Source: a virus (taxonomy: Duplodnaviria; Heunggongvirae; Uroviricota; Caudoviricetes). Taken from it: a stretch of DNA of 64,000 nt. Below the pieces are notes generated by a model. The model did no database searches and had not been told where the DNA came from. It was given only the letters and a program-made list of their open reading frames with translations. The position numbers and the translations under genes are program-made. Below are positions 1,285-62,757 of this stretch, piece after piece. How positions within the stretch are numbered: position 1 is the stretch's first letter; every line of letters begins with the position of its first letter. The stretch is from the IMG/VR virus record IMGVR_UViG_3300027852_001421. One strand, given 5' to 3'.

Positions 1285-1479
1285 AGGAGTGCGGCTATTA
1301 GGTCCGAGGGCCTGTTGACGCCACTGTAACGCGTTGCGAAAACCAAGCGAAAGCTAGGGTCGGTCTCATTCTGGGGGTTATCCACAACTAAGCCTCTTGG
1401 GCTGCATGGAAGTGAAGCTTTCGAGCGGCTAGGTTTGCGAATAACGGCGCAAGAAGCGATACCTACAGATGGAGCACCC

Positions 1480-1914
1480 ATGTCGAAGCCACCTTTTGAA
1501 GATATGTTCGGCTGGAAGTCCGGTCGTCGAAACCGCAAGAGTTTTGCGCTTTTCATGCTCGCCCAGCTTGGCGTATCGCTGTCCCTCTTTGTGTTGATTG
1601 TCTCTCTGACTCAACTTGGAAATGCTAACGATGTTGTCATTGGGATTACCGGGCTTGGCACGTTCGTTGTTGGTGTGGGTCTTATAACGTCCCAATTCTG
1701 CGTTATGGCGCAGCGTTGCCGGGATATTGGCTACAGTGGATTCTTTGTGCTACTAAACTTTGTTCCCTTTATTGCGCTCCTGTTCCAGGTTCTCCTACTC
1801 ATCGTTCCAGGCAGTAAGGGGCCTAATAAATATGGACCTGATCCGCGTGACCCGAATGCGCGGGCCGATGGCCTCACCTCGGCCAACACCAATGCTTCTC
1901 TTCTGAACAAATGA
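1480..1914 (+). CDS. DUF805-family inner membrane protein (YhaH-like)
   Basis: GGAG 6 nt upstream of ATG 1480. Translation has GRRNRKSF, a multi-TM core, QRCRDIGYSGFF and C-terminal G-PNKYGPDP motifs typical of DUF805. Confidence 0.6.
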   Translation: MSKPPFEDMFGWKSGRRNRKSFALFMLAQLGVSLSLFVLIVSLTQLGNANDVVIGITGLGTFVVGVGLITSQFCVMAQRCRDIGYSGFFVLLNFVPFIALLFQVLLLIVPGSKGPNKYGPDPRDPNARADGLTSANTNASLLNK

Positions 1915-2249
1915 CGGCGCTCAGTGCAGCCACCGCAGAGGTCTTCGAGCGGTACAGCAAGCTCATTAAGGAGCAGCAAGCCTCCGGCATGGCAGATCCT
2001 CTCGCAGAGGATCGTTACCTCTCGCTCACAAACCTCCTTTGGATGTGTGACCAAGCAGTTGCGGAGCACGACAGCTTGCCGATCGACAAGATCTCGCGCT
2101 GGTTGGGATGTGTGCAGGGCTGCCTTGCATCACGCGGCCTCATCAGCATCGAGGCCGAACGTGATTTCACAAGGACCCTCTTCCACGGCGCCTATGCACA
2201 AGACGGTATCGAGATCCCTGGCCGGAGAGAGCGCGCGATCGAGCCCTGA
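1911..2249 (+). CDS. hypothetical protein
   Basis: 112-aa ORF with balanced composition. ATGA overlap with upstream DUF805 gene suggests translational coupling. Confidence 0.4.
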   Translation: MTALSAATAEVFERYSKLIKEQQASGMADPLAEDRYLSLTNLLWMCDQAVAEHDSLPIDKISRWLGCVQGCLASRGLISIEAERDFTRTLFHGAYAQDGIEIPGRRERAIEP

Positions 2250-2307
2250 TACAGGAGGGCTCAAATGCCATTTGCCAAAACCCCGGTCGAGGTCCATATT
2301 CACTGAC

Positions 2308-2724
2308 ATGGACAAACTTCGTATTCATCGTGGGCTGACGCGATATTCCTCCCCCGGCTGGGAGGTGCGATTGTTTCGATTTGCTCCAAACGTAACACCA
2401 ACACGCGAGGCCGCGCCCGAGCTCCGTCATGCCGGTCTTTTCCTTGCCTTTGGTGTTGGATTGAACAGGCCGGTTGTGCTTCCGCGGCAAATCCCCCTCT
2501 TCGGTGAAGTCGCGTCCTTTCCACAAGGTGGATGCTCTGGAGCGATATTCCTCACAACCGCTCATGATACCTTGCAGATCGATGATCTGAACGGACTCTC
2601 TGAATGTCTTTTTGGACTGGGACGCAGCAAAACAAAGATTGCTCTTAGCGCAAATGCTCAGAAGCTCGAAGAGATGTTTCGCCAGGTATTGGCGGACGCC
2701 TATCACGTACCAGCCGCGGCTTAG
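2308..2724 (+). CDS. hypothetical protein (139 aa)
   Basis: Internal ATG of the 1924..2724 track ORF. Only the part downstream of 2308 has protein-like composition and does not overlap the 1911..2249 ORF. Confidence 0.35.
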   Translation: MDKLRIHRGLTRYSSPGWEVRLFRFAPNVTPTREAAPELRHAGLFLAFGVGLNRPVVLPRQIPLFGEVASFPQGGCSGAIFLTTAHDTLQIDDLNGLSECLFGLGRSKTKIALSANAQKLEEMFRQVLADAYHVPAAA

Positions 2725-2727
2725 ACC

Positions 2728-4357: not shown

Positions 4358-4599
4358 GTGGGATCTCCTTACGAGAAGATGCATCTTTAAGGTATAACTA
4401 GAATTTTCGCAAACGGTTCTATCTCATTTGCGTGAGAATCGACGTAACGCGAGGTTGCGGCTGCAAACCGGGCGGCGACGTGGTGGTTTGACCATATAAA
4501 TAATGAAAGATTGAGCCTATTAGCGGTTTTGCGAAAAATCGGCTTGCTAGTCTGTTTCCAGTATGTCAGAAAGTTTATGAAAGCCAAAAGGAGATGTTT

Positions 4600-5814
4600 A
4601 TGGTTTCGCCTGTTTTAAGAGGCATCAGTTGTTCGGACTACCGCGCAACTTTAGCAGATCTCGAAGAGGATGGATGGTCGATCAGCAAAACCAATGGAGG
4701 CCATCTAAAGCTAGAGCACCCAAAGGCCAGCAAAGCTATTTTCGGTCCATGCTCCCCATCGGATTATCGCTCCAGGCACAATGTAGTTAGGAAATGCAAT
4801 ATCGCGATCGGCGAAGCAGCACGAGAAGAGAAAGTCTTCGGTCCAGCTCCCAAACAAAAGGAACTATCCGACCGCGAGTTCACCAGCATCCTGAAGAGCA
4901 GTAAGAAAATGCGAAAAACAAACCGTCACAAGCATGTGCCGACACCGAGCCACTTCCTTACAGATGCTGCCTCACCCGCGGATCCAGCTACGCCGAAGCG
5001 CAAGCTCGGCACACTTGCCCTGCCCGCATCCAAACAGGCCGTAAAGGCCAGTGCAGAAATCGCATCATCGCCCATGCAGGCGGTTGCGAAAAAGCTGAAT
5101 ATTACCAGCGCGACAAATCAGAAAGCGCCACCTCAGAAGAATAAGTCGGCGCCTACCCTCTCCAACGACAAAGACAAGGACACCAATACCATGCTCGCTT
5201 CCGTTTCCCCTACACCAGCCCCCGCGCAGCCTCAGGCCCCGGCTCACACATCCACACCCGCACCGCAGCCTGTCTCCAGGAAGCCCGATCCTCGTCAGGC
5301 AGGTTCCACCGCCATTCCGTCGATCTCCGCCGACGTTCTTGCGCTTGCAATGAAAATCACATCCGGCGAGATGATGCAGGTCGAAGTGACGGCTGATATG
5401 GTTGGCCAGACGCTCTACTACGATGGTCAGATCGTCCTGTCGGGCGCGGTGACCTCGAAGCCTGCGAAGTCTCTGTCGGTGGTGCCTTCTGCGACAGCAG
5501 CAGCGCCTGCGGCGACCCCCGCTCCTATGCCTGCCGCGGCAAGCGATACGTCGCACTCCTCTGCCGTTGCGACCAGGGGTCTCTCTCAGAATGAAGCGAT
5601 CACGTCGACCATCCTCGAAGCGCTGAAGGTTCTCGGCCCCGAACTGGTGACATTCAAGGAATTGACCCATGCGACCCTGCCGGATCTGCCCTATAAAAGC
5701 TTTAATTCGGCGCGCTCCTCCCTGCCTCTTCACGTCAACCGCATGATCGCAAGCGGCATGATCGAGGAAGGGACCAAGGACAACCAGAAGGCCTACCGCG
5801 TTAAGGCGTCCTAA
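4600..5814 (+). CDS. multi-domain ORFan: HicA-like N-terminal domain, Pro/Ala/Thr-rich linker, C-terminal globular domain
   Basis: AAAGGAG precedes ATG 4600 (alternative ATG at 4594). N-terminus LADLEEDGWSISKTNGGHLKLEHPKASKAIFGP resembles the HicA/YcfA fold (GW...GSH...HP...P). Residues about 150-300 are a low-complexity PAPAQPQAP linker. Confidence 0.5.
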   Translation: MVSPVLRGISCSDYRATLADLEEDGWSISKTNGGHLKLEHPKASKAIFGPCSPSDYRSRHNVVRKCNIAIGEAAREEKVFGPAPKQKELSDREFTSILKSSKKMRKTNRHKHVPTPSHFLTDAASPADPATPKRKLGTLALPASKQAVKASAEIASSPMQAVAKKLNITSATNQKAPPQKNKSAPTLSNDKDKDTNTMLASVSPTPAPAQPQAPAHTSTPAPQPVSRKPDPRQAGSTAIPSISADVLALAMKITSGEMMQVEVTADMVGQTLYYDGQIVLSGAVTSKPAKSLSVVPSATAAAPAATPAPMPAAASDTSHSSAVATRGLSQNEAITSTILEALKVLGPELVTFKELTHATLPDLPYKSFNSARSSLPLHVNRMIASGMIEEGTKDNQKAYRVKAS

Positions 5815-5835
5815 ACTCTCAAGATATGTGGATAA

Positions 5836-5866: not shown

Positions 5867-5876
5867 TTGTGCGAAA

Positions 5877-6485
5877 ATGAAAAACCAACATATTTACGCA
5901 AAGGGCGCGTCTGTGGGCAACTACAAGAGCAACAAATTCGACGGGAGCCTCGCTCTTCGTGTGACCATCGCCAGCCTTATCTGTCCATTCCCCATCGTTC
6001 TGCTGGTTCTCTTAGGGCCAACGCTCATGGCGCTTTTAGGGGGTCTGCCGGGGATGATCCTAACGATGATCCTTTGTTGCCTTGTTATTGCGCTGGTTGC
6101 AGAACTGCTCAAGTTGGTGCCCTTCCCCCTAGTGACAGTTATGAAGGACGACACGCCGCCTTCGGATTTGGAAATCGCGCGCACACGCCTGTGGCACACT
6201 TTCAGCGCACTGCCGCTGTCATTCGCTGCAGCTTTGCTCTGGACAGTCTCTGCCGCCTTGTCATTGGAGTATTATGCAGCGCCAATCATGCTGATCATTG
6301 TCAGCCCCATGACGATCGCATTTCTGATCCTGCACCTCGACAGCGAAACAGCCGCTGAGGCCCTGCGAAAATCACTGCGCACATTCATCCTGATGTTGCT
6401 GGTCTCATTTATGTTTTCCCCAGAGCCCGCTGAGTTGGACAGCGTGGGGGCAGCGGATAACGCATCTGATAGCTTTCCGCGGTAG
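5877..6485 (+). CDS. polytopic membrane protein (ORFan)
   Basis: Start MKNQHIY. Four or more hydrophobic helices. The TGCGAAAA motif overlaps the ATG (tgtgcgaaaATG). Confidence 0.55.
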   Translation: MKNQHIYAKGASVGNYKSNKFDGSLALRVTIASLICPFPIVLLVLLGPTLMALLGGLPGMILTMILCCLVIALVAELLKLVPFPLVTVMKDDTPPSDLEIARTRLWHTFSALPLSFAAALLWTVSAALSLEYYAAPIMLIIVSPMTIAFLILHLDSETAAEALRKSLRTFILMLLVSFMFSPEPAELDSVGAADNASDSFPR

Positions 6486-6491
6486 TGCTGT

Positions 6492-7385: not shown

Positions 7386-7771
7386 GCCGCATCCCTAGCT
7401 CTGATGCCATATAAAGCACATAGCACCGGGATTCTGAAAGCGCATACTGATAGACGCGAGGGTCGTCTCAAGTCTGTGGTTTAGGGGCGCTCGCCGCGCA
7501 CCGGCCACTTCAGCTTTGCTTTCAGCGACCCAACCATCTTGCCGACGCTGAAGCTCGAAAATGCGACGATACATACGAAGAGAATGAGGAAGGTCAGAAT
7601 AAGAAGGATCTGCACGATATGGCTCCTTGCCGGGTTTCCTCCATATTTATGCAGTTTGCGATTTTTCGCAAGACTACAAGCTGCGGTATTTGCCACCGAT
7701 CCCTCAGTATCCCCTTGCCGAGACCGCGCTCATCCTCCAAAAAGTTATCGCCACATACTTATGGGGGTTCA

Positions 7772-8419: not shown

Positions 8420-8611
8420 GCCCTTGGCCCTTGCAGTCATGACACAGTGCAGAAGATAAGTCCGGAAACCCAGATTAAATCTCGGTACGCCACTTGCGAA
8501 AAACACCGAAAGACATATTTTATTACCAGAGAAACGAAACAGATTTTCAGCGTTATGAACTTTCACAAGGTCGACGCAAGATACCACGAAGTCAGATATT
8601 AGGAGCAAGAC

Positions 8612-13522: not shown

Positions 13523-14140
13523 TCATGCCACCACTTTCAGTGTCTGATGATGCGTGTAGCGCATCTTGCGCGCCATGATCTCTTCATGGGCGTCGGGCAC
13601 ATCCTCGAAGAAGTCATCCGGCAGGAAGTGAACCGCGATCCAGAAATCGAAGAGGTCCAATGTCAGAAGCTGCCTGTTGTTCTGCTCCGGACGATCGGGA
13701 TGGAAGCTGTCGTAGCCGTGGCGCAGAATCTTGCCCACGGTTTGCACGACCTTGGCGGCCCTGGTTGACAGGATGTGGAGCTGCTCCATTTCGGCAAGGT
13801 CCACGCCATTGACAACGATCGTATTGCCCAGAGCGGACATGTCGATCAAGGCTTCAGAGTACGGGCTTTCATAAGCAGCCTCGTTTTTCGCAAAGTAGTT
13901 CCCAAATGCCTCGATGCTGAGGTCATTCTGCATGAAATGAGCCACAGCCAGGAGCTCAGCGACTTCGCGCCCGAGATGGCCGATGTTGTCGTCGAGTACC
14001 CCCTCAAAGTTCTCGTCGTAGGGTCCATGTTTCAAGACCTGGGTTGCGGCCTGGACCACTTCGCCGGCTTCTTCGGAAAGCATAGCCAGACGTTCAGTTT
14101 CTGCAGCTGTCAGTTTGTTGAAGTTCTCATGTTTGCTCAT
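13523..14140 (-). CDS. tandem MazG-like nucleoside triphosphate pyrophosphohydrolase domain protein
   Basis: Two internal repeats each with the MazG/EE-x-GE helix signature (LAMLSEEAGEVVQAATQVLKHG and LHILSTRAAKVVQTVGKILRHG). Confidence 0.5.
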   Translation of the reverse strand: MSKHENFNKLTAAETERLAMLSEEAGEVVQAATQVLKHGPYDENFEGVLDDNIGHLGREVAELLAVAHFMQNDLSIEAFGNYFAKNEAAYESPYSEALIDMSALGNTIVVNGVDLAEMEQLHILSTRAAKVVQTVGKILRHGYDSFHPDRPEQNNRQLLTLDLFDFWIAVHFLPDDFFEDVPDAHEEIMARKMRYTHHQTLKVVA

Positions 14141-14454: not shown

Positions 14455-14667
14455 GGTCAGTCTTTCCAACCTCTCTGCTTTGCGAAAACTATATGAACAC
14501 TGGTTATCCGACTCAAGTAAGGAGATGCAAGCGATTTGCGAAAAACGCGGAAAATTTATTGTAAGTATGACTGAATGCCAATGAGATGTGGACAACGAGC
14601 CCATAGGCCTTGTTGGTCGGTGTTGCGAAAAATAGATGTTACGAAGACATCAAAAGAGGCTGAGCTC

Positions 14668-16044: not shown

Positions 16045-16126
16045 GGGGAATTCCTGTTGGTTCTTGCTTTGGGACAAGTGTCAAACAGGATTGCGAAAAA
16101 GCCAAGGACAACTCTGCGGTGGTAAA

Positions 16127-16471: not shown

Positions 16472-16501
16472 TGCAGAACTCCTTTTGTTTTCGCATGAGT
16501 A

Positions 16502-19039: not shown

Positions 19040-19116
19040 CTTGATCTCGCATATTTGTTTGACGCCAGTGTCGTCGGGTCATGCGAAAAGAAGAAGGCAT
19101 TCCTACCGTCAGAGGG

Positions 19117-20416: not shown

Positions 20417-20429
20417 ACTATGCGGACGT

Positions 20430-20505: not shown

Positions 20506-20525
20506 ACTAAGGAGACGTAAGGGCA

Positions 20526-20551: not shown

Positions 20552-20804
20552 GCATGGGTATCGGGCGCGAAACTGAACTCTGGCGTCAGCGCGTCTCTCG
20601 ATACCCGGATTGTTCTTCCTGAAAACGGAACATGGTCTTCTTCCTTTGATTACACAGAGTTTCTCGCACATGAGTTTGGACAGCGCAAGTATTATTTTCG
20701 CAAAATGCGGAATTGGCTTGCAAGCCCCGCTCAAGCAGGGTTCTTCACCCAATCCCCCTGGAAGCCCCGTCTGTTCACGGCGGGAATGGATAGGGTGAAA
20801 CACA

Positions 20805-21227: not shown

Positions 21228-21407
21228 CGCGAAAAACCCTCTCTATGTTAAAGTTTATATATTCGCACTTCTTGTTGGGGCAACCTGTCGCCGTAGGAAT
21301 AATTCTGCCCAGCGGGGCTTAAAACTTCTTTGAACCTCTGGATTATCGCAAGCCATCCCTATACTGGCGGCACCAATCGAGACGAGAAAAACGAGACCAC
21401 AGGCAGT

Positions 21408-25305: not shown

Positions 25306-26229
25306 TCACAGCCGCTGAACACCGCGGGACTGGCCAGTCTTGGCCGGCACGCCCTTCAGGGCATTGGCCACGGTCAGCGCAGTCGAGCCAGACCAGCTCG
25401 CAGCCACATCGGAGGCCAGGGCCCCTTCGGTTACCTGGATCAGCGACACAACTGTCTCGGCCAGGGCATTGACGTCCTCGAGCTGAATGGTGCGCTCGGG
25501 CAGGATCTGGCGCCAGGTAGTGAGGACGTGATCGCGCGACTGGCCCCAGTTGCAGTAGCCCTCGTTGACCAGTGCGATGTGGAAGACCTCCCAATCGCGT
25601 TGAACCATACGGATGATGTCGGCCGCCGAGAGATCCGCCTCGACCGAGATGCCCAAAACACGCTCAATCTCTGCTTTGGTCATGCCATCGTGGATCGGCT
25701 CGTCGCCAATGGTGAAGAGGTAGCCCTTGCGGCCGCGTTTCTCGATCGCATCGGCGCGGACCTTGGTTGCGGCGAAAAGATGGGCCGACGAGTAGGATTC
25801 ACCGCCGTTTCCGCCCCCTGCCCCTTCAAGCCAGAGCTTGCGGGCCTGTTCAGCGACGCGAATATCGGCTTCGAACTGGGTTACCTGCAATGGCGCCCGG
25901 TCGGTTTTCGCATCCCCCACGCCCATGATCATGATATGCGGATCAGTGACCGGCTTGCGGTCATAGATCTGGGTCGCCAGAGTGTTGAGCCCGTCGCGCA
26001 TCAGCTTCTCAGCAATCATGCCCATGGAGCCGGTCACATCCGAGGCGAGGATGATCGGGGTCGACAGCGGGTTGTCCGCGGAGTCCCGGCTTTCACGGAA
26101 TTCGATCTTTGCAGGGTTGAATTCGTCTTTCATGTTGCGCGAGGTGAAAATCTGGCTTTGCGATTTACCCGCGGTGTTCTGTGCTGTGTAGCCGGCCCAA
26201 GCCGAGCTGTCCCAACGTCCGTCTCCCAT
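25306..26229 (-). CDS. von Willebrand factor A (VWA) domain protein
   Basis: AAGGAG 7 nt before ATG. MIDAS-like ILASDVTGSMG (DxTxS), then the downstream hydrophobic beta-strand pattern of a VWA fold. Confidence 0.65.
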   Translation of the reverse strand: MGDGRWDSSAWAGYTAQNTAGKSQSQIFTSRNMKDEFNPAKIEFRESRDSADNPLSTPIILASDVTGSMGMIAEKLMRDGLNTLATQIYDRKPVTDPHIMIMGVGDAKTDRAPLQVTQFEADIRVAEQARKLWLEGAGGGNGGESYSSAHLFAATKVRADAIEKRGRKGYLFTIGDEPIHDGMTKAEIERVLGISVEADLSAADIIRMVQRDWEVFHIALVNEGYCNWGQSRDHVLTTWRQILPERTIQLEDVNALAETVVSLIQVTEGALASDVAASWSGSTALTVANALKGVPAKTGQSRGVQRL

Positions 26230-30185: not shown

Positions 30186-30466
30186 GAGTTGGATCTCCTT
30201 GGTTGCCTCCAATATGGAGGCATCCCGCGAAAAAGAAGATTCCGTTCAGACTGTCAGGAAGGTCGAACCGAAGGTGACGAGCGTTCCTGCGACCCCCATG
30301 TCGAAGAGGTAGACGCAAAGGGCAGTCACGAAGAGCGAGATGAAAAACTTATGTCCAAACCTGTCCAAGTCGGTATTCCTCCAGTAGATAGATAATCTAT
30401 GCTTGCTTTGTTTTTCGCAACACCTTAGATAAGCCAGACCAAGATATTCAAAGAGGGACGAGAGAG

Positions 30467-33527: not shown

Positions 33528-33969
33528 AATAAAATATGATGATGTATTGTGTTTGCGAAAATCACTATCTATCTAGGTGGTATCAGAGAGGCCCCGGAGC
33601 TCGTAAGAAGAGTCCCGGTCTTTAAAACCGGTTGTCTGGGGGCGGAGCCCAGCGGGGTCACCATCTGAACCGTACTGCGAAAAATGTGGATTGACCTCTT
33701 TACAGTAGATCAAGCATCCCTATATTCAAATCACGATGAACAGAACCCCCCTGCCCCATGCAGGTCACTTGAAAGGACAGATCATGAGCAAGGATTAAAC
33801 CAGCGTCTCACTCCGCACCAAAGACGACACGGCGCCTCCTGGCGACGATGCATATCGTGGGTTTACCCGCGAGCTGAAGACCACCGCTTCACCGTCGAGC
33901 TCCGCTCAGCAGGTTGAAGGCCTCGGTGATGATCTTCGCCTCTATTCCATTCTCAGAACAGATATCACC

Positions 33970-36283: not shown

Positions 36284-36426
36284 AGAACCTTACTCCTCGC
36301 TTCACAACTCAAGCCTATGCTGGACCCGATATCGCGAAAATGCATAGTTATTGGTTATCCACAGAAAGCCGCGCTGCGCTGGCTGTGGGATCTAGAAAGC
36401 CACCTCTTTGCGGATAGTCTGGTGGC

Positions 36427-36921: not shown

Positions 36922-37013
36922 CCGGTTTCTCCGATTACACAGAACAACCATATGCCGCCGTTTTTCGCATCCAACCCTAGCAGGTAATTTTACCCCTCCA
37001 GACACTGAAGGTT

Positions 37014-38384: not shown

Positions 38385-38522
38385 GGATCGATTTCCTGTG
38401 AATATTTGATGTTATCCTATTATGGGAGGAGGTAGCGAAAAATCCCAACTTATCTCTAACGGTGGGTTGCCCTCGGACCTTATTCAAGACAGTTTTAGAG
38501 TGATTAATATTGGGAGTTCCAA

Positions 38523-41151: not shown

Positions 41152-41897
41152 GAGAACAGGCTTGTAGCCAGAGTCCCGGCAATCCAAAGGCAGCTGAGCT
41201 CATCCCGGCTCCTGCCGCGGCCGCTGGCTGCGCCCGTGATCCTCGTCTTCACCTCGTAGGCAAAATCTTCAACGATACAGTCGATTTGCCGACCAACTTC
41301 CCCCTCACCAAAACGCGTGATGGGGGAATCCTTATCTGAGTAAGACTGACCACAAAGACAGGAAGTAATAACCTTTTCTGTCAGATAGCCAGCTTCAGCC
41401 GCCGAGCGGTTGTCGATGGTGCCCCAGAACTTTCTCCATAGGATATTCGCAATGGTTGATTTGGCGTCCTTGAACCCGTTTTCCAATACCGCACGGTTCG
41501 CAAGTTGCTCAGAAACTGGCAGTTCTTGATTTTCTTCAATCCACTGGAAGCGCAGGCGACGCTTCACAACCTCATAAACCAGCTCGAAAACGGCAGGAAA
41601 ATCATCGATCTTCTGTTCTGCCTCAAGATAAAGGTCGACGAAATCCTCAACCTCGAGCGGTTCAACAAACCAATAAGCAGAAGTATCAAAGATATCATCC
41701 GTCAAACGCATTTCTGGCGTTACCGTCGTGAGCGTCTTTTCAGTTGCGCAGATCTGCTCGACAAGAGCGACGATTTTCGCAAGGGCGCCATCATGAAAAC
41801 GATAGGCCGACAACCCGTTCTTACCGACTTCACGGAGTTTGGAAATTTGCTTTTTCTGCGTACTTGAAAGCCGCTTGTCTCTGGATGTCTTCTGCAT
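41109..41897 (-). CDS. PD-(D/E)xK nuclease-fold protein (YraN/restriction-endonuclease-like C-terminal domain)
   Basis: C-terminal GRQIDCIVEDFAYEVKTR (hhhD ... EVK motif). The last about 30 residues are low-complexity and overlap the next ORF, so the true C-terminus is uncertain. Confidence 0.5.
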   Translation of the reverse strand: MQKTSRDKRLSSTQKKQISKLREVGKNGLSAYRFHDGALAKIVALVEQICATEKTLTTVTPEMRLTDDIFDTSAYWFVEPLEVEDFVDLYLEAEQKIDDFPAVFELVYEVVKRRLRFQWIEENQELPVSEQLANRAVLENGFKDAKSTIANILWRKFWGTIDNRSAAEAGYLTEKVITSCLCGQSYSDKDSPITRFGEGEVGRQIDCIVEDFAYEVKTRITGAASGRGRSRDELSCLWIAGTLATSLFSWLWMAPPVLHWTR

Positions 41898-48214: not shown

Positions 48215-48312
48215 TCAGAGAGGCAGCCACCAATTGATCGCGCAGATGGGTTTATCCTGTTTCATAAGCTGATCTTAGAAAGCGCGAGGCAGAAAGGCAA
48301 TGCGAAAAACAC
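48215..48312 (-). promoter_or_regulatory. trpS leader: TTTTTCGCA motif, sigma70-like promoter (TTGCCT-17-TAAGAT) and 16-codon leader ORF MKQDKPICAINWWLPL with tandem Trp codons
   Basis: Read on the minus strand. The leader ATG is 6 nt after the -10 hexamer (leaderless geometry); TGG TGG at plus coordinates 48228-48233. Confidence 0.45.
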
Positions 48313-49792: not shown

Positions 49793-50019
49793 AACCTTAC
49801 TCCTTTTTCAGTTCGATGGAGATCATGTCAGGCGGAGTTCTCAACTGACGCAAGCCGCAATTTTGCAATGATACGGTATGAGACGCTATGCGACTAAAAA
49901 AACTTCGACGGTGCCTTTCGTCCTGCGGGGAAATCGGTCCGTGAGCGTGACAGCCTGTGCGAAAACAAATATCTCTAGGCGAATCATCTAACTGTTCACG
50001 GCGTTACATCGGGGGAGTC

Positions 50020-57402: not shown

Positions 57403-57658
57403 GTGGCTCTCGCACATCCCAAGAGATGTGCTGCCACCCTCACTCCAGCTCCGCTGAAGTGAGTATGCCTCTCCCAGAGATTTCCGGAGGAAACTCGTCG
57501 GAGCGACGCGCATCGCTTATGCGATGCGCTGGCTCACACCTCCATCCGGAGGTGTTGCCGACTGTCACACTGACTTCGCCAGTATGACTAGGCTCTCGCA
57601 CATCTAAAGAGATGTGCTGCCGCCCTCACTTCAGCTGCGCTGGAGTGAGTATGCGAAA
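57403..57658 (+). repeat. two about 68-nt direct repeats (57403..57470 and 57590..57658), each with two hairpins, flanking copy 2 of the 125-nt element (57469..57593)
   Basis: ggctctcgcacatc(cc/ta)aagagatgtgctgcc(a/g)ccctcact(c/t)cagct(c/g)cgctg(a/g)agtgagtatgc, about 90% identical; the second copy ends in TATGCGAAAAA. Confidence 0.55.
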
Positions 57659-57822
57659 AATCGTTGACCGGATGTAATCTCTGGCTTACATAGGCCTCAT
57701 GATGAACATGATCGCCTCCACCACGACGACAACAACCACCCATCCCGGGCGGAGCGTTGTCGTGTGAGTTGATCGGATCAACATACCAGACTTTGAACCC
57801 CGCCACCGACGCGGGGTTTTTT
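57652..57822 (+). promoter_or_regulatory. thrS-paralog leader: TGCGAAAAA motif, sigma70-like promoter TTGACC-17-TACATA, leaderless 22-codon leader peptide with 7 consecutive Thr codons (57699..57767), intrinsic terminator (57798..57822)
   Basis: ATG ATG AAC ATG ATC GCC TCC ACC ACG ACG ACA ACA ACC ACC CAT ... TGA; ccccgc-caccgac-gcgggg followed by tttttt, 45 nt before the thrS-like ATG. Confidence 0.6.
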
Positions 57823-59117: not shown

Positions 59118-59324
59118 TGCATATCAGGCCGCTGAGAGGCGGCCTGCACTCTTTGATAAATCCGATAAAATTCCCTGCCGGAATGTTGGGTGACGTTTCG
59201 GTGGCGACACATGGTCAACCATAAGTGTGGATAACCTATCGTATCTGCGAAAACCGAGATTGTAGGGGCGTATTTTGCCCATAGCTGAACCGCGAGTTAA
59301 ACGCCCAACGCAAAGGTTCAACTA

Positions 59325-60275
59325 ATGCTTATTTCCGCAACGGCGATCTATGTCGCCATCTTCACCGTCGTGTTTCTCCTGATGGCCGCGTCGACCGTCG
59401 TCATCACACAGCAACAACACGTCAAGATCATCTCCACGTTCGGCAGGTTCTCCTCCGTCAAAAAATCTGGCTTGTCGTTCAAAGCGCCCTGGCCGTTCCA
59501 GGCGGCATCCCCGAACTTCTCTTTGAAGATCCGTGAGATCTCTGAAGATGTTAATGTGAAGTCTTCGGATAATGCCTTCGTGTTGGTGCCAATCCGCGTT
59601 CAGTTCTGCGTAGATGAAGATACAGCGCAGGACGCCTTCTACAAGCTGAACAACCCTGAGGGCCAGATCCGGTCCTACGTCGTCAATCAGGTGCGCTCCA
59701 CGGCCTCCAGCCTGTCGTTCAATCAGCTCTTTCAGGCTCGTGACACTTTCGAAGATGGTGTCGAAGGCACTCTGACCGAGAAGATGTCCGGTTTCGGCTT
59801 CCGGATTGAGAACGTGCTCGTTGATGACCCGCAGCCCTCGGAAGAACTCCGCCAGGCCTTCGACCGCGTCATCGCATCTGAGCGTCTGAAAGAAGCTGCG
59901 ATCAATGAAGGTGAAGCTGCGAAAACGCTGTCGATTGCAAAATCGCGCGCCGAAGGCGAAGCAATGAACATCAAAGCCGAAGCCTATGCGTCCTTCCGCA
60001 AAAAGGTGGCCGAAGGCAACGCAGAAGCGCTGCAGGCCTTTGTGGGCAGCACCGGCCTTTCGGCCAGCGCCGGCCTCGACTTCTTCACGTCGATCAATGA
60101 GATGGAAGCGCTGCGTGACGCTGCATCCGCGGGTGGCAGTGTGGTCTTTGTGACGGCCGCGGCAAAGGAAACCAAAGACGCTGCGACCATGGGCATGATC
60201 GCCGCAGGTCAGCAGGTGAAAACCCCAGCCAAAGCGACACCGCGCAAGGCAGCACAGCCAGCCAAAGCCAAGTAA
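59325..60275 (+). CDS. SPFH/band-7 (stomatin/prohibitin/HflKC-like) membrane protein
   Basis: N-terminal TM helix then VVITQQQHVKIISTFGRFSSVKKSGLSFKAPWPFQ and the rest of the SPFH domain. Ala/Lys-rich C-terminal tail. Confidence 0.7.
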   Translation: MLISATAIYVAIFTVVFLLMAASTVVITQQQHVKIISTFGRFSSVKKSGLSFKAPWPFQAASPNFSLKIREISEDVNVKSSDNAFVLVPIRVQFCVDEDTAQDAFYKLNNPEGQIRSYVVNQVRSTASSLSFNQLFQARDTFEDGVEGTLTEKMSGFGFRIENVLVDDPQPSEELRQAFDRVIASERLKEAAINEGEAAKTLSIAKSRAEGEAMNIKAEAYASFRKKVAEGNAEALQAFVGSTGLSASAGLDFFTSINEMEALRDAASAGGSVVFVTAAAKETKDAATMGMIAAGQQVKTPAKATPRKAAQPAKAK

Positions 60276-60396
60276 CGGCAATTCCGTATTGCAAAGTCAT
60301 CGGGCGCCAGGAAACTGGCGCCCTTCCTATTTTTGATATGCGCATTTTTCGCACTGTGATAAGCTATTCTGAATACACCCGACAAAGGATACCAAA

Positions 60397-61041
60397 ATGA
60401 CCGTAAAGTCCTCCGGCCAGATGGCCTTCCCCACCTATACTGGCGCGCGCTGCTACATGATACCCTTCATCCAGGGGCGTGCTGAAAGCCTGCCTGAAGC
60501 CTATGCGGGCTATGGTGATGTGGTGGAACGCTTCGCCCTGCCCGGCCAGGAGGGCGAGTTGGGTCTCATCACCATCGACGAGAGCATGGTAGCCGCCGGC
60601 GCATCGCAGCGTGGCTACGGCGCCGGGGATCGCACGATCCATACGGAAGCCTGCCTGCGCGAAAGCCTTCTGACCTGGGGGCCGAGCTCTCCCACCTGGG
60701 GCGACGGGCCCGGCTTTGTCGAGCTGGAGCGCGAAACGCGTGTGCTGATCGCCAACTCAATTCCGGACACCTGCATGATCTGGGACCTTGATGTCGAAGA
60801 CACCACAGCGGACGGCGATCTCTCGGCGCGCGCGGCCGAGTTCCCGCGGACATCAGGGCGTATGATGGCGGCCGGTGAAGTGGTGGAAATCGGGATCTTC
60901 ACCCCGCATGAGCCAATCGCACAGGCGGAGGCTGGGCCGCGCCAGTTCTTCCGGATCGTTGGTAAAGGGGTCCACGGCCGTGAAGAATATTTCACCCGGA
61001 ATCCAGTTCTGGAGAAGCGGGTGGGTCTGGCACAGCTTTAA
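60397..61041 (+). CDS. hypothetical protein (214 aa)
   Basis: TTTTTCGCA motif 50 nt upstream. Globular composition. Confidence 0.5.
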   Translation: MTVKSSGQMAFPTYTGARCYMIPFIQGRAESLPEAYAGYGDVVERFALPGQEGELGLITIDESMVAAGASQRGYGAGDRTIHTEACLRESLLTWGPSSPTWGDGPGFVELERETRVLIANSIPDTCMIWDLDVEDTTADGDLSARAAEFPRTSGRMMAAGEVVEIGIFTPHEPIAQAEAGPRQFFRIVGKGVHGREEYFTRNPVLEKRVGLAQL

Positions 61042-61251
61042 GACATACCTCCCTCGCGGCCGTTGCGCAGGATCCGAACCTCGCGCTGATCGACTGACAT
61101 AATGAGAAGATGGCCGAGTTTGACGAAGAAGAACTCGATGCCGAGCCTTCGTAAACGAGAAAGGCCCCGACAGTGATGCCGGGGCCTATGTTTCGATCTT
61201 TGCCCAAACAGGGCGAGCCACTCTTGCCTAGTATTCAGGATTTCTCAGATT

Positions 61252-62559
61252 CTAGGTTCTGCGGTTTCTCTTTAGTTTCACTTTGGGTCTCACGTGAACA
61301 GCATCAGGGTCAACAGGACGCTCAATAGGGTCCTTAACCTTGATCGCCTTGACCTTCTGTTCGTACCCAGAGGACGGGAAAACATCTCGGATATAGGGGT
61401 TCGAATCCAGCACCTTGTTGATCGCCAGGTTCGACAGGAGCTCCAGCCGCTTTTCCTGTCGTGGGCTCACATCTCCGATCTGGAGATCGTTGGTAATGGC
61501 CTCATGAGCGTAGCGGTAAGGATTGACCTCATTCATTACGAAATCACAGTAGGCCCGCACCCATGAAATTGGTCGTGCCCCACTGTCAGTGTTGGCGCGC
61601 GCCAAGGGAAGGTAGTTCTCAAAGCGTTTCAACGCATCACCGGGGCTTTTTGCATCATGTCGCCAATAGAACTCGGAGAAGTCATCCGAATGATAATCTG
61701 CACTTCGATACGCTGCCGCTTCCAGCTTTACTGGAGACTTCTTTGAGTAGGTCAGCATAAGATTGACGGCATCCGCCACATGAACACGGGATGGAGCTTT
61801 CACATTGATCCGCTCCGCAAGTTGATGGGAGTGATGGCCTCCAATATCATTGCTGAACATACATGCTTCAGCAAAATCTTCGACCTGCTTGGATGTCAGT
61901 CCCAAGACGTCCTCTGCCGCCAGATCCTTTCGAAGCAGCTTCGGCAGTAGAGCGGCAATATCTGTGAGAGCACCGATTACCTTCTCACGGTAGGGTTCAG
62001 CCTTCTGATGCGTTTCATTGAGGAGGGCTCTGATCTCCGGAGATTCATTTTCCCCCTCCTCACGGGAGGCATTTTCGAGCTCCTCTTCGCCTTGATCGAA
62101 GATCTTATCCAGTTTTTCGATCTCTACGACATTCCGATAGATTTCCTGGACAAGCTCATAGGCCCGCGCGGCGAGTTCCGCTCGGGCGGCGATATCTCCG
62201 GAGTCGATATAGGTTTCACGCCAGGACTGAACATTTGCCATCTGGTTTTGAGCCACGGTCAGCTTTTCGACGCGATAAGCAAGCCAGATCGCGATCGCGG
62301 AACCTGCAAGACCGATGGAGACGCCGACCACGCCCGAAAACCAGTCCGACACCGATCCCCAACGCGCCTTGTCCCCGTCAAACTCATCTCCTTGCATGAA
62401 GTTCTGGCCAAACTGATGGCTCAACCAAGTGGTGCCGAGGGCCAGCCCGACAAAGAGAAACAAGATGCCGAACAGTGCGCCGGCTGATTTCAAGCCCGGT
62501 GAGGCTCGCTTTCTCAGTTTAGGTTTATGGTTTGCTGCTGCGAGGTCTGAAGAAGTCAC
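61252..62559 (-). CDS. membrane-anchored hypothetical protein (2 N-terminal TM helices, 435 aa)
   Basis: Long ORF with hydrophobic segments at residues about 25-45 and 65-90. Confidence 0.55.
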   Translation of the reverse strand: MTSSDLAAANHKPKLRKRASPGLKSAGALFGILFLFVGLALGTTWLSHQFGQNFMQGDEFDGDKARWGSVSDWFSGVVGVSIGLAGSAIAIWLAYRVEKLTVAQNQMANVQSWRETYIDSGDIAARAELAARAYELVQEIYRNVVEIEKLDKIFDQGEEELENASREEGENESPEIRALLNETHQKAEPYREKVIGALTDIAALLPKLLRKDLAAEDVLGLTSKQVEDFAEACMFSNDIGGHHSHQLAERINVKAPSRVHVADAVNLMLTYSKKSPVKLEAAAYRSADYHSDDFSEFYWRHDAKSPGDALKRFENYLPLARANTDSGARPISWVRAYCDFVMNEVNPYRYAHEAITNDLQIGDVSPRQEKRLELLSNLAINKVLDSNPYIRDVFPSSGYEQKVKAIKVKDPIERPVDPDAVHVRPKVKLKRNRRT

Positions 62560-62757
62560 TTTTATACCTGTATCAATTCTAATCTATGGTGCGCGAAAAA
62601 TACGCAACTACGTCAAATTCTGATCTGCGCACCGGGGCTGATCGTCTTTCGGTTGTAAAGGGATGTCAATCTCCCTCATACTGTTATATGCTTGCTTTGG
62701 CTTAGTTATTTTCATGAGCCCAACATAATGTCTCCTTAAATTCGAAAGGAACGACAG

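What the first reader, a model, noticed from the sequence alone, without database searches (positions are those of the whole stretch)
1335..62600. TGCGAAAA(A) motif at about 30 sites, almost exclusively intergenic, often abutting a sigma70-like -35 box
Copies of TGCGAAAA or its reverse complement TTTTCGCA (including CGCGAAAA, AGCGAAAA and TGCGAATA variants) occur at approximately 1335, 1432, 4404, 4530, 5870, 7656-7672 (palindromic TTGCGA-N5-TCGCAA), 8495, 9889, 14481, 14537, 14624, 16092, 16488, 19082, 20695, 21228, 30226, 30412, 32003, 33521, 33553, 33676, 36333, 36962, 38435, 48301, 49958, 54914, 57652, 59246, 60346 and 62593. A random 8-mer on both strands is expected about twice in 64 kb. 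Intergenic DNA is only about 15% of the window yet holds nearly all copies. The motif is orientation-independent relative to the downstream gene, sometimes clustered (three copies in 14481-14631, three in 33521-33683), and in a few cases overlaps the start codon (5870-5879; 21228). In the two cases where a clean promoter is readable it sits directly 5' of the -35 hexamer: thrS leader TGCGAAAAA-tcg-TTGACC-17-TACATA, and trpS leader TTTTTCGCA-TTGCCT-17-TAAGAT on the other strand. This looks like a genome-wide promoter-associated element: an UP-element-like A/T tract with an added conserved GCG, or the site of a global regulator or nucleoid protein. I do not recognise it as a known alphaproteobacterial box (not CtrA, LexA, sigma54, EcfG, RpoH or tts).
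Basis: seen in the sequence. Interest (0 to 1): 0.75.

Follow-up and report, generated by a model that had tools for sequence, protein, structure and literature searches.

The report
Clade-wide promoter octamer TGCGAAAA
An exact eight-base word, TGCGAAAA, is built into about half of the promoter regions of an uncultured marine alphaproteobacterial clade and is kept by selection, so it is most likely the docking site of an unidentified global transcription protein.

Summary
TGCGAAAA occurs 34 times in the window against about 3 expected. Twenty-three or 24 copies lie in the 12.7% of the window that is non-coding, and it is the commonest intergenic 8-mer. Every single-base variant is rare.

These are themselves about five times more frequent than codon-aware models predict.

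The word is not private to this genome. It is also the top intergenic 8-mer in four relatives, down to 61% PurA identity and across 50-62% GC. It is absent from a Sneathiella genome.

Copies are conserved where neighbouring DNA drifts: 11 of 12 against an 85%-identical relative, where about 41% of other 8-mers survive.

Copies sit at defined promoter positions:
- Just upstream of the -35 box of three attenuator-controlled promoters (thrS, trpS, tRNA-Glu).
- As the -35 box itself, TTGCGA followed by a -10-like hexamer at the right spacing, in 12 of 29 sites.
- Inverted, 41-51 nt before start codons.

The best reading is a box for an unknown, abundant, sequence-specific DNA-binding regulator that works in both orientations. 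An UP-element-like role and a genome-wide DNA signal remain possible. No known motif matches.

The parts
57652..57659 (+). Motif copy 4 nt upstream of the thrS -35 box (TGCGAAAA-atcg-TTGACC-17-TACATA). It spans about -47 to -40 from the inferred transcription start.
   Evidence: Sequence read. Conserved in L088. In L089 the copy is kept but lies 15 nt from the -35 box instead of 4, amid unrelated upstream DNA.
57664..57692 (+). thrS core promoter: -35 TTGACC (57664-57669), a 17-nt spacer, then -10 TACATA (57687-57692).
   Evidence: Coordinates. The -10 lies 6 nt before the leader ATG. Conserved in L088 and L089.
57699..57822 (+). thrS attenuator used to anchor the promoter: leader ORF MMNMIASTTTTTTTHPGRSVVV (57699-57767) and an intrinsic terminator (57796-57822).
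   Evidence: Alignment. RNA fold with z = -4.7. The same design occurs in Sneathiella locus L008.
48301..48308 (+). Motif copy inverted relative to trpS and abutting its -35 box (minus strand: TTTTCGCA|TTGCCT-17-TAAGAT). It spans about -43 to -36.
   Evidence: The motif, -35 and -10 are conserved in L088, while the spacer and the upstream DNA are not.
48215..48300 (-). trpS promoter and leader: -35 at 48300-48295, -10 at 48277-48272, and leader ORF MKQDKPICAINWWLPL at 48265-48215 with tandem Trp codons.
20695..20702 (-). Motif copy 6 nt upstream of the -35-like TTGCGC (20688-20683) of the promoter that drives the tRNA-Glu leader.
   Evidence: The orthologous promoters read motif-N6-TTGACG (L168), motif-N5-TTGACC (L170) and motif-N8-TTGACG (L171).
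20661..20668 (-). Degenerate copy TGCGAGAA at the -10 region of the same promoter. The orthologous position in L168 carries the exact word TGCGAAAA.
60346..60353 (-). Inverted copy upstream of gene 60397-61041: TTTTCGCA-ctg-TGaTAAGCT (extended -10 at 60357-60365). It lies 43 nt before the ATG, at about -26 to -19.
   Evidence: TTTTCGCA-N3-TGnTAnnnT is kept in the window, L088, L089 and L090, although the DNA and the genes upstream of the motif differ in all four.
4404..4411 (-). Forward copy acting as a -35 box: TTGCGA-17-TAAAGA, directed at gene 3488-4384.
   Evidence: Conserved in L006.
4530..4537 (+). Forward copy 62 nt before the ATG at 4600.
   Evidence: Conserved in L006.
1335..1342 (+). 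Copy in a divergent region. Read inverted it gives TTTTCGCA-N6-TACAGT, 50 nt before the ATG at 1284 on the minus strand.
   Evidence: Conserved in L006.
5870..5877 (+). Forward copy just after terminator 5834-5862: GTGCGA-16-TATTTA, 35 nt before the GTG at 5913.
   Evidence: Conserved in L006.
7656..7671 (-). Palindromic double copy TTGCGAAAAATCGCAA (exact copy at 7663-7670 on the minus strand): TTGCGA-16-TAAATA, directed at the small ORF 7615-7481.
   Evidence: Conserved in L006.
8495..8502 (+). Forward copy acting as a -35 box: TTGCGA-16-TATTTT, directed at gene 8612-9874.
   Evidence: Conserved in L006.
14481..14488 (+). First of three copies in the divergent region 14455-14667. Read inverted, it lies 26 nt from the ATG at 14454.
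   Evidence: Identical in L168.
14537..14544 (+). Second copy of the cluster: TTGCGA-15-TATTGT.
   Evidence: Identical in L168.
14624..14631 (+). Third copy of the cluster, 36 nt before the ATG at 14668.
   Evidence: Identical in L168 at the same distance from the start codon.
16092..16099 (+). Inverted copy 47 nt before the ATG at 16044 (minus-strand gene).
   Evidence: Identical in L168.
16488..16495 (-). Forward copy inside a 30-nt gap between two genes of one operon. It lies 6 nt after the upstream stop codon, directly before the Shine-Dalgarno sequence, and 16 nt before the ATG at 16471.
   Evidence: Identical in L168. This position does not fit any promoter reading.
19082..19089 (+). Inverted copy 42 nt before the ATG at 19039 (minus strand). 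It abuts a -35-like ATGACC.
   Evidence: Identical in L168.
30412..30419 (-). Copy in a divergent region. Read inverted it gives TTTTCGCA-N6-TAGATA, 47 nt before the ATG at 30467. Read forward it gives TTGCGA-15-TAGATT.
   Evidence: Identical in L168, including the TAGATA.
32003..32010 (-). Forward copy 47 nt before the ATG at 31955.
33522..33529 (+). First of three copies upstream of the PTH2 gene (ATGCGA-18-TATTGT). Its TGC comes from the end of a REP-like hairpin.
33554..33561 (+). Second copy of that cluster.
33676..33683 (+). Third copy of that cluster. It is followed after 7 nt by TTGACC, or after 15 nt by TTTACA-16-TATATT.
36962..36969 (-). Forward copy 40 nt before the ATG at 36921.
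49958..49965 (+). Forward copy 54 nt before the ATG at 50020.
59246..59253 (+). Forward copy 71 nt before the ATG at 59325, and 11 nt after a TGTGGATAA word.
21228..21235 (+). Variant CGCGAAAA (TCGCGA-16-TAAAGT toward gene 21408). It abuts the ATG of gene 20805-21227. The orthologous position in L168 has the exact word.
30226..30233 (+). Variant CGCGAAAA, intergenic.
36333..36340 (+). Variant CGCGAAAA, intergenic, 14 nt before TTATCCACA.
38434..38441 (+). Variant AGCGAAAA, intergenic.
62592..62599 (+). Variant CGCGAAAA. Read inverted, it lies 5 nt before TAGATT. It is not kept in L088, which has GCGCGAATAG.
4910..4917 (+). Coding copy, sense strand, in gene 4600-5814.
   Evidence: Kept in L006.
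5085..5092 (+). Coding copy, sense strand, in frame nnT-GCG-AAA-Ann, in gene 4600-5814.
   Evidence: Kept in L006.
6364..6371 (+). Coding copy, sense strand, in gene 5913-6485.
   Evidence: Kept in L006.
13885..13892 (-). Coding copy, sense strand, Ala-Lys frame, in gene 13523-14140.
   Evidence: Kept in L006 and L168.
25905..25912 (-). Coding copy, sense strand, Ala-Lys frame, in gene 25306-26229.
   Evidence: Kept in L168, L169 and L171.
27228..27235 (+). Coding copy, antisense to gene 26311-27324.
   Evidence: Kept in L168.
28721..28728 (+). Coding copy, sense strand, in gene 28158-29507. L168 has CGCGAAAA at this position.
30586..30593 (+). Coding copy, sense strand, in gene 30467-31039.
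   Evidence: Kept in L168.
41774..41781 (-). Coding copy, sense strand, in gene 41109-41897.
59918..59925 (+). Coding copy, sense strand, in the Band_7 gene 59325-60275.
   Evidence: Kept in L090.

Best explanation
TGCGAAAA (core GCGAAAA, usually preceded by T and followed by A) is the recognition box of an abundant, sequence-specific DNA-binding protein. That protein is shared by a clade of uncultured marine alphaproteobacteria and works at sigma-70-type promoters.

Shown:
- The word is sharply defined and strongly enriched between genes.
- It is kept by purifying selection.
- It is conserved across a deep clade.
- It sits at a few preferred places in promoters: (a) 0-8 nt, or one helical turn more, upstream of a good -35 box at strongly regulated translation genes (thrS, trpS, the tRNA-Glu leader), in either orientation; (b) in the forward orientation on top of the -35 position, where its TTGCGA serves as the -35 hexamer 15-18 nt before a -10-like hexamer; (c) inverted, about 6 nt upstream of a -10 or extended -10 hexamer and 41-51 nt before the start codon.

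Inferred:
- One protein reads the asymmetric 8-10 bp box as a monomer or through a single reading head. No second half-site is detectable.
- Depending on position, it helps RNA polymerase dock (upstream or -35-replacing positions, as PhoB, MotA or class I/II activators do) or hinders it (spacer positions).
- Because roughly half of the promoter-capable intergenic regions carry a copy or a one-mismatch variant, the protein would be a global regulator or an accessory factor of the polymerase rather than a pathway-specific regulator.

The protein itself is not identified.
For: Enrichment and sharpness:
- 34 copies against 2.95 expected.
- 23-24 copies lie in 12.7% of the DNA, and the word is the top intergenic 8-mer.
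- Each of the 24 single-base variants has 0-4 intergenic copies, against 23 for the exact word.
- Flanking positions carry almost no information, so this is not a longer repeat.
- No copy lies in any of the 13 convergent gene gaps.

Selection:
- 10 of 10 copies are unchanged in a 95%-identical genome.
- 11 of 12 are unchanged in an 85%-identical genome, 7 of 7 among intergenic copies, where 40-43% of other 8-mers survive.

Breadth:
- 17, 6, 6 and 12 copies against 0.4-0.9 expected in L168-L171.
- It is the top intergenic 8-mer in each of them, at PurA identities of 85, 63, 61 and 61% and GC content of 50-62%.
- It is also present in L088-L090.
- Sneathiella locus L008 has 0 copies.

Promoter anatomy:
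- The thrS, trpS and tRNA-Glu leader promoters are anchored by leader ORFs and conserved -35 and -10 boxes, with the motif next to the -35.
- At thrS the spacing changes from 4 to 15 nt in L089, which is one helical turn.
- At the promoter of gene 60397, sequence conservation begins exactly at the motif in four genomes that have unrelated upstream DNA.
- A -10-like TAnnn[T/A] lies 12-15 nt after the forward motif in 12 of 29 sites, against a background of 9.3% (P = 4.5e-6).
- Inverted copies lie 41-51 nt from a start codon in 7 of 22 cases, against 1.3 expected (P = 4.5e-4). Independent further cases occur in L169 and L171.
Against: - No protein has been identified and no transcription start site has been measured. 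All promoter positions are inferred from sequence and conservation.
- The distance window for inverted copies was chosen after seeing the data.
- Some conserved copies fit no promoter reading. Copy 16488 lies inside a 30-nt operon gap right before a ribosome-binding site. Copies in L168 abut start codons at 11209 and 13513.
- A promoter-only regulator does not predict the excess inside genes: 18 sense-strand copies against 2.3 expected over four genomes. The coding copies also lack a downstream -10-like hexamer.
- Per-position conservation of about 93% is higher than for most transcription-factor sites.
- In tandem gene gaps the copies show no preference for the half nearer the start codon (distances).
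Confidence: 0.5

Rival explanations
1. The word is read by RNA polymerase itself. It would be an UP-element-like docking site for the alpha subunit C-terminal domains, or an extended -35 element for the housekeeping sigma factor, that has become sharply defined in this clade. No separate regulator would be involved.
For: - At thrS and trpS the A/T tract of the motif falls at the same place (about -43 to -40) although the motif is in opposite orientations. That is the position of the proximal UP subsite.
- In L089 the thrS copy moves one helical turn upstream and a T7 tract fills the proximal position.
- At the tRNA-Glu leader promoter the 5-8 nt between motif and -35 are always A/T-rich.
- All three promoters serve translation genes, where UP elements are typical (established knowledge of E. 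coli rrn and tRNA promoters).
- TTGCGA matches 4 of 6 positions of TTGACA and stands at -35 spacing in 12 of 29 sites.
Against: - Alpha C-terminal domains read a narrow minor groove and tolerate many A/T sequences. They do not explain an invariant TGCG with 0-4 copies per variant.
- Inverted copies 6 nt from the -10 and copies inside operon gaps or genes lie outside any UP or -35 position.
- Good canonical -35 boxes (TTGACC, TTGCCT, TTGACG) coexist with the motif in the same promoters.
Confidence: 0.18
2. The word is a genome-wide DNA-level signal rather than a promoter part. It could be a DNA-uptake-sequence-like self mark, or the preferred site of a nucleoid-structuring protein. It would be maintained everywhere it can be tolerated, and therefore concentrated in non-coding DNA.
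For: - The word is exact, occurs on both strands, and has a density of about 0.5 per kb.
- There is a significant excess inside genes, with a preferred reading frame nnT-GCG-AAA-Ann. This is the behaviour described for Haemophilus and Neisseria uptake sequences, from my knowledge of that literature.
- Coding copies are conserved between genomes (4 of 5).
- The intergenic-to-coding density ratio of about 15 is of the same order as I recall for Neisseria DUS.
- Copies show no preference for the start-proximal half of tandem gene gaps.
Against: - Intergenic copies are not placed at random. They keep fixed relations to -35 and -10 boxes and to start codons.
- There are no copies in convergent gaps or terminators and no inverted pairs forming hairpins.
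- The word is only 8 bp with uninformative flanks, whereas known uptake sequences have 9-12 bp cores plus flanks.
- Nothing is known about competence in this clade.
Confidence: 0.12
3. The word is the target of a DNA methyltransferase, and its promoter copies act as epigenetic switches, as GANTC does with CcrM and GcrA in Caulobacter.
For: - An exact word with no tolerated variants is what an enzyme recognition site looks like.
- It is enriched between genes and placed inside core promoters.
- It works in both orientations.
Against: - Enrichment of roughly 90-fold in non-coding DNA is far beyond what is known for GANTC, which is merely less avoided there.
- An 8-bp asymmetric site ending in A4 is unusual for known methyltransferases (my knowledge; not tested).
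- No methyltransferase gene was seen among the proteins scanned.
Confidence: 0.06
4. The copies are remnants or ends of a small mobile repeat (REP or MITE), or a by-product of base composition.
For: Two copies (33522 and 57652) directly follow a REP-like double hairpin whose last bases (TATGC) supply the TGC of the motif.
Against: - The other 22 intergenic copies share no flanking sequence.
- Dinucleotide shuffles, codon shuffles and synonymous resampling all fail to reach the observed counts.
- The word is enriched in genomes ranging from 50 to 62% GC.
Confidence: 0.02

Closest known systems
Spo0A '0A box' (TGNCGAA) of Bacillus
   Same: Both are short asymmetric boxes read by a single DNA-binding domain. 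Both function in either orientation and at different promoter positions: upstream of the -35, overlapping it, or inside the core promoter. Both activate or repress many promoters. The sequences also resemble each other (TGtCGAA against TG-CGAAAA).
   Different: - The window's word lacks the base between TG and CGAA and requires A4.
- Spo0A is restricted to Firmicutes.
- 0A boxes are degenerate and serve about a hundred genes, not half of all promoters.
- No homologue was looked for or found here.
UP element (alpha-CTD site) of rrn and tRNA promoters
   Same: At thrS, trpS and the tRNA-Glu leader promoter, the motif puts an A/T tract at about -43 to -40, or one turn further upstream. These are translation-related promoters. 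The element works in both orientations there.
   Different: UP elements are degenerate A/T-rich sequences without a fixed GCG. They never lie at the -35 hexamer, in the spacer or inside genes.
Boxes that replace the -35 hexamer: the PhoB pho box and the phage T4 MotA box (centred near -30)
   Same: In the forward class, a specific box occupies the -35 region 12-15 nt upstream of an ordinary -10 hexamer. This suggests an activator that contacts sigma region 4.
   Different: - Pho boxes are direct repeats of 7 bp.
- The MotA box is TGCTTtA and needs the phage co-factor AsiA.
- Both are orientation-dependent and serve small regulons.
MarA/SoxS/Rob marbox
   Same: It is an asymmetric site bound by a monomer. 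Orientation and distance to the -35 go together (class I backward and upstream, class II forward and overlapping the -35). The forward/-35 and inverted/upstream cases here recall that rule.
   Different: The marbox is a degenerate 20-bp site of different sequence with a regulon of about 40 genes. thrS here has a forward copy upstream of the -35, which breaks the marbox rule.
DNA uptake sequences (Neisseria DUS, Pasteurellaceae USS)
   Same: Both are exact words at about 0.5-1 per kb on both strands. Both are far denser between genes but also in excess within genes, in preferred reading frames. Both are conserved within a clade and absent outside it.
   Different: - DUS and USS are 9-12 bp with flanks.
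- They often occur as inverted pairs in terminators.
- They have no fixed relation to -35 or -10 boxes.
- The copies here are tied to promoters and are absent from convergent gaps.
Mimivirus early-promoter octamer AAAATTGA
   Same: An exact octamer lies upstream of about half of the genes of a genome that is rich in orphan genes.
   Different: That element is viral and eukaryote-like, strictly oriented, and sits at a fixed distance. The window is bacterial, with Shine-Dalgarno sites, intrinsic terminators and attenuators. No viral relatives were found.

Membership tests
UP element (alpha-CTD binding site) | Located between about -38 and -59, upstream of the -35 hexamer | tested here: inconclusive
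   Met at thrS, trpS and the tRNA-Glu leader promoter. Not met for the 12 of 29 copies at the -35 position, for the inverted copies 6 nt from the -10, or for the coding copies.
UP element (alpha-CTD binding site) | Degenerate A/T-rich sequence without fixed G/C positions | tested here: not met
   T, G, C and G are each close to invariant. Variants have 0-4 intergenic copies against 23 for the exact word.
UP element (alpha-CTD binding site) | Bound by the alpha C-terminal domain and stimulates transcription without other factors | not testable with these tools
   Needs in vitro transcription or footprinting.
Sigma-70 -35 hexamer | TTGACA-like hexamer 16-18 nt upstream of a TAnnnT hexamer, oriented toward a gene | tested here: inconclusive
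   TTGCGA with a -10-like hexamer at the matching offset occurs in 12 of 29 sites (P = 4.5e-6). However, conserved inverted copies and copies upstream of a separate good -35 box cannot be -35 hexamers.
Alternative-sigma promoter element (ECF, RpoH, sigma-54) | Fixed orientation toward the gene and a fixed partner element at constant spacing | tested here: not met
   In tandem gaps, 7 copies point with the gene and 4 against it, and the inverted ones are conserved. There is no GG 10 nt upstream, no CGT 16-17 nt downstream, and no information outside the word.
CRP/FNR-type or LacI-type palindromic operator | Second, inverted half-site at fixed spacing | tested here: not met
   The position-frequency table shows no TCGCA or other half-site within 25 nt. 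Only one palindromic instance exists (7656-7671), and its spacing is N4.
PhaR/AniA box of alphaproteobacteria (TGC-N3-GCA with A/T arms) | Palindromic GC pairs TGC...GCA | tested here: not met
   The motif as listed in PMC12542648 needs the second GCA, which the window's sites lack.
DNA uptake sequence (DUS/USS) | Exact word, high copy number, both strands, in excess within genes as well | tested here: met
DNA uptake sequence (DUS/USS) | Placement independent of promoter elements, and frequent in terminators or as inverted pairs | tested here: not met
   Copies keep fixed relations to -35 and -10 boxes and to start codons. None lies in the convergent gaps.
DNA uptake sequence (DUS/USS) | Preferential uptake of DNA carrying the word by a competent cell | not testable with these tools
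   Needs an experiment. Only a weak, sub-threshold type IV pilin-like hit was seen (31374-31955).
REP/MITE-type dispersed repeat | Copies share extended flanking sequence or a hairpin | tested here: not met
   Information content is about zero outside the word. Only copies 33522 and 57652 adjoin a REP-like repeat.
Archaeal BRE/TATA promoter (considered because of CGAAA and PTH2) | Archaeal host, with a fixed orientation about 25 nt upstream of the transcription start | tested here: not met
   The host is bacterial: ThrRS is closest to alphaproteobacteria, and the window has Shine-Dalgarno sites, leader-peptide attenuators and intrinsic terminators. Orientation is mixed.

The most novel reading that the evidence does not exclude
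The word is not an ordinary regulator site. It would be a new kind of basal or genome-wide signal in a bacterial clade, in one of two forms. Either it is a promoter element read by a clade-specific accessory subunit that is present at most promoters, a cellular analogue of sigma appropriation or of the giant-virus promoter octamers. Or it is the first uptake-sequence-like self mark outside Neisseriaceae and Pasteurellaceae, one that has been co-opted into promoters. Either form would explain both the promoter anatomy and the frame-biased excess inside genes.
Probability: 0.15. Interest if true: 0.8.

Novelty: new member of a known kind. Interest (0 to 1): 0.55.

Why it matters
If this reading is right, a whole clade of uncultured marine alphaproteobacteria runs a large share of its promoters through one very sharply defined 8-bp box. 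The genomes of this clade are rich in genes without known families.

That would give a simple handle for several tasks:
- Predicting promoters and operon starts in these metagenome-assembled genomes.
- Recognising members of the clade.
- Fishing out the unknown factor, either by DNA affinity or by phylogenetic profiling against Sneathiella, which lacks the word.

The unexplained excess inside genes raises a further possibility. The factor, or some other process, may act on the chromosome as a whole. That would be unusual for a bacterial promoter motif.

Tried and rejected
- Archaeal BRE/TATA. I considered this early because of CGAAA and a PTH2 gene, and rejected it because the host is bacterial.
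- Jumbo phage or giant virus. I considered this because most proteins have no family and the window carries aaRS and tRNA genes. I rejected it because there are no relatives in IMG/VR, PHROG hits are few and of unknown function, and cellular genes lie nearby.
- The generic sigma-70 promoter scan gave no more hits than shuffles and was of no use.
- Motif as an extended -10 element (TGnGAAAAn) with a -35 box 14-15 nt upstream. This fits 1335, 20695 and L168 12913, but only 3 of 29 sites, which is not above chance.
- A second half-site, or sigma-54, ECF or RpoH partner elements: none found.
- An RNA-level motif. Rejected because the copies at the anchored promoters lie upstream of the transcription start and conserved copies occur in both orientations.
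- Coding copies as internal promoters. None has a -10-like hexamer at 12-15 nt (read).
- Literature searches for the word and its 7-mers returned primers and unrelated sites. The S. meliloti PhaR motif does not match.
- Winged-helix (Trans_reg_C) genes with motif copies upstream in L170 and L171 have no homologue at the corresponding place in the window.
- Taxon names could not be obtained from cluster look-ups.
- Co-occurrence with the DnaA-box word TGTGGATAA holds for 4 of 5 copies in the window, but that word is not enriched in L169-L171.

Full report
**Source and annotation.**
The window is identical to part of a 112-kb ENA metagenome contig. It is 95% identical over its first 14 kb to contig DRFN01000049.1 of MAG GCA_011050585.1. 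I transferred the gene calls of these records to window coordinates, which gave 80 genes and 87.3% coding.

The host is a bacterium. Its 416-aa ThrRS passes the thrS model, and its nearest genome hit is a Sneathiella MAG at 70% identity, followed by other alphaproteobacteria. The sequence shows Shine-Dalgarno sites, intrinsic terminators and leader-peptide attenuators.

Twenty-seven of 30 proteins scanned have no Pfam family above threshold. A phage origin found no support.

**The observation.**
TGCGAAAA occurs 34 times on both strands, against 2.95 ± 1.7 in shuffles. Twenty-three copies lie in the 12.7% of non-coding DNA. The count is 24 if gene 7619-8419 starts at 7772, as called on the related contig. 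It is by far the commonest intergenic 8-mer.

The word is sharp. Each of the 24 single-base variants has 0-4 intergenic copies against 23 for the exact word. The best-tolerated change is T to C at position 1.

Outside the eight bases there is only a weak preference: T before, A after, then C/T and A. So this is not a longer repeat, and there is no second half-site.

None of the 13 convergent gene gaps (771 bp) holds a copy. About 2 would be expected, so this is only weak evidence.

**Copies inside genes.**
Eleven copies lie in called genes (ten after the re-annotation). Codon shuffling predicts 1.8 and synonymous-codon resampling predicts 2.4, and no resample reaches the observed number.

Nine are on the sense strand, and seven of those are in the frame nnT-GCG-AAA-Ann. 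Of the 15 GCG-AAA codon pairs in the window, 7 have T before and A after.

Pooled over the window and three distant relatives, there are 18 sense copies against 2.3 expected, and 3 antisense copies against 1.1. None of the window's coding copies has a -10-like hexamer at promoter spacing. This excess is real, and I could not explain it.

**Conservation and breadth.**
- All ten copies in the region shared with the 95%-identical MAG are unchanged.
- A syntenic contig found through PurA (L168; 85% nucleotide identity in both coding and non-coding DNA) keeps 11 of 12 copies, 7 of 7 among intergenic ones. Only 40-43% of all other 8-mers are unchanged there. The single change is the tolerated T to C.
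- The word is enriched 11- to 19-fold in L168, L169, L170 and L171 (17, 6, 6 and 12 copies against 0.4-0.9 expected). It is the top intergenic 8-mer in each. Their PurA identity to the window is 85, 63, 61 and 61%, and their GC content is 50-62%.
- It is also present in three thrS-region relatives (L088-L090).
- The Sneathiella locus has none, and no other of about 160 loci from other taxa stands out.

The element is therefore old and clade-wide, not a quirk of one genome.

**Position in promoters: anchored cases.**

*thrS.* The sequence reads TGCGAAAA-atcg-TTGACC-17-TACATA-6-ATG. The ATG opens a leader ORF with seven Thr codons, and a terminator follows. L088 is the same. In L089 the DNA upstream is unrelated, yet the word is kept. 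It lies 15 nt from the -35 box instead of 4, which is one helical turn, and a T7 tract fills the gap.

*trpS (minus strand).* The sequence reads TTTTCGCA|TTGCCT-17-TAAGAT-6-ATG, followed by a leader ORF with tandem Trp codons. The motif, -35 and -10 are conserved in L088, while the spacer and the upstream DNA are not.

*tRNA-Glu genes.* They are preceded by a small ORF (MFRFQEEQSGYRETR), a long hairpin and a terminator. The promoter of this leader reads motif-N5 to N8-TTGAC(G/C) in the window, L168, L170 and L171.

In the thrS and trpS promoters the A/T tract of the word falls at about -43 to -40, whichever way the word points.

*Gene 60397-61041.* It has the inverted word followed by N3-TGnTAnnnT in four genomes whose upstream neighbours differ. 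Alignable sequence begins exactly at the word.

**Position in promoters: statistics.**
These use 29 intergenic sites with the 7-bp core.
- A TAnnn[T/A] hexamer lies 12-15 nt after the forward word in 12 sites, against a 9.3% background (P = 4.5e-6). This is the spacing expected if TTGCGA is the -35 hexamer.
- Inverted copies lie 41-51 nt from a start codon in 7 of 22 cases, against 1.3 expected from uniform placement in the same gaps (P = 4.5e-4). I chose this window after looking at the data. Three further independent cases occur in L169 and L171. About half of these copies have a -10-like hexamer 5-8 nt downstream.
- Forward copies show no comparable clustering relative to start codons.
- A few conserved copies fit nothing. 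One example is 16488, in a 30-nt operon gap just before a ribosome-binding site.

**Interpretation.**
The following together indicate that the intergenic copies are working parts of sigma-70-type promoters:
- the non-random placement;
- conservation amid drifting flanks;
- persistence across a deep clade;
- use in both orientations at several discrete positions.

The most economical reading is a box for one abundant DNA-binding protein with a single asymmetric reading head. It would act as activator or repressor according to position. In logic it resembles Spo0A 0A boxes, MarA-type sites, and the -35-replacing PhoB or MotA boxes.

Exact copies occur in 18 of the 53 divergent or tandem gene gaps, and 5 more gaps hold a variant with the intact 7-bp core. 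That is about half of the gaps long enough to hold a promoter. The factor would therefore be global.

I put this at 0.5.

**Rivals.**
- *An element read by the polymerase itself (UP-like or extended -35).* This explains the anchored promoters well. It does not explain the invariant TGCG or the core-promoter and coding copies. Confidence 0.18.
- *A genome-wide DNA signal of the uptake-sequence or nucleoid-protein type.* This explains the exactness and the frame-biased coding excess, but not the promoter geometry. Confidence 0.12.
- *A methylation target.* This cannot be tested here. Confidence 0.06.
- *Composition or a mobile repeat.* Excluded as a general cause, although two copies borrow their TGC from the end of a REP-like repeat.

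**Comparison with known motifs.**
The sequence and anatomy do not fit CtrA, DnaA, LexA, sigma-54, ECF, RpoH, CRP/FNR or LacI-type operators, as I recall their consensus sequences. One search shows no partner element or second half-site. They also do not fit the PhaR box as listed in PMC12542648. Full-text searches for the word gave nothing relevant.

I therefore file it as a new member of a known kind: a promoter-associated protein-binding box. Two features are unusual, namely its sharpness and its excess inside genes.

**Limits.**
- There are no transcription start data.
- No binding protein has been identified.
- Only about 190 kb of the clade's DNA was available.
- All promoter elements are inferred from sequence and conservation.

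Noticed in passing
57699-57822 (+); also L088, L089, L008 9840-9960: thrS is preceded by a leader ORF with seven consecutive Thr codons (MMNMIASTTTTTTTHPGRSVVV) and an intrinsic terminator, which is a classic attenuator design. The -10 hexamer lies 6 nt before the leader ATG, so the leader ORF would be leaderless. The design is conserved as far out as a Sneathiella MAG. The ThrRS itself is short (416 aa; 396 aa in Sneathiella) and lacks the usual N-terminal part.
   Followed up: partly
48215-48300 (-); L088 about 4560-4800: trpS has the same design: promoter TTGCCT-17-TAAGAT, then 6 nt, then a leader ORF MKQDKPICAINWWLPL with two adjacent Trp codons, followed by conserved hairpins. The leader ORF is kept in L088 (MTQNIPICSTNWWLPL).
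   Followed up: partly
20527-20633 (-), upstream of tRNA-Glu genes 20352-20516 (-); L168 about 12940-13060, L170, L171: A small ORF MFRFQEEQSGYRETR (two Glu codons), a long conserved hairpin and a terminator lie directly upstream of the tRNA-Glu(UUC) and tRNA-Glu(CUC) genes. The arrangement is conserved in relatives down to 61% PurA identity. It looks like a leader-peptide attenuator controlling tRNA genes. No Rfam family matches at gathering score. The four-sequence alignment shows no compensatory changes.
   Followed up: partly
1378-1386 (-), 5827-5835 (+), 36355-36363 (-), 41968-41976 (-), 59226-59234 (+): The perfect DnaA-box consensus TGTGGATAA occurs five times, always between genes. Four of the five copies lie within 45 nt of a TGCGAAAA-type site. 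There is no cluster that would suggest an origin of replication. The word is not enriched in the distant relatives L169-L171.
   Followed up: partly
57405-57468 and 57591-57654 (+); related copy about 33395-33520: A 64-nt REP-like unit with two hairpins (GCACATC...GATGTGC and CTCACTCCAGC...GCTGAAGTGAG) is repeated upstream of thrS and, in part, upstream of the PTH2 gene. Its last bases (GAGTGA-G/C-TATGC) run into motif copies 57652 and 33522.
   Followed up: partly
whole window: Most predicted proteins have no recognisable family: 27 of 30 in Pfam and 7 of 10 in NCBIfam. Several are large and have acidic ends (for example 16502-19039, 845 aa). The gene order NrtR, a 337-aa gene, a 307-aa gene, PurA and, further along, GluQRS is nevertheless conserved across the clade.
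   Followed up: partly
33970-34305 (+); L170 4526-4852: A PTH2-type peptidyl-tRNA hydrolase, the type usual in archaea and eukaryotes, is encoded in this bacterial clade.
   Followed up: no
42674-44706 (-): A HipA-family kinase gene (444 aa) overlaps by one base an upstream 232-aa gene with helix-turn-helix domains. This is a HipBA-like toxin-antitoxin pair.
   Followed up: no
3488-4384 (-): The called ATG at 4384 lies only 19 nt after a motif copy and inside the predicted promoter. A second in-frame ATG 27 nt downstream has a good AGGAG ribosome-binding site and is the more likely start.
   Followed up: no
L170 5121-5197 (-): ARAGORN calls a tRNA with a CUA anticodon (labelled tRNA-Pyl) in a distant relative. 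It could be a suppressor tRNA or a miscall.
   Followed up: no
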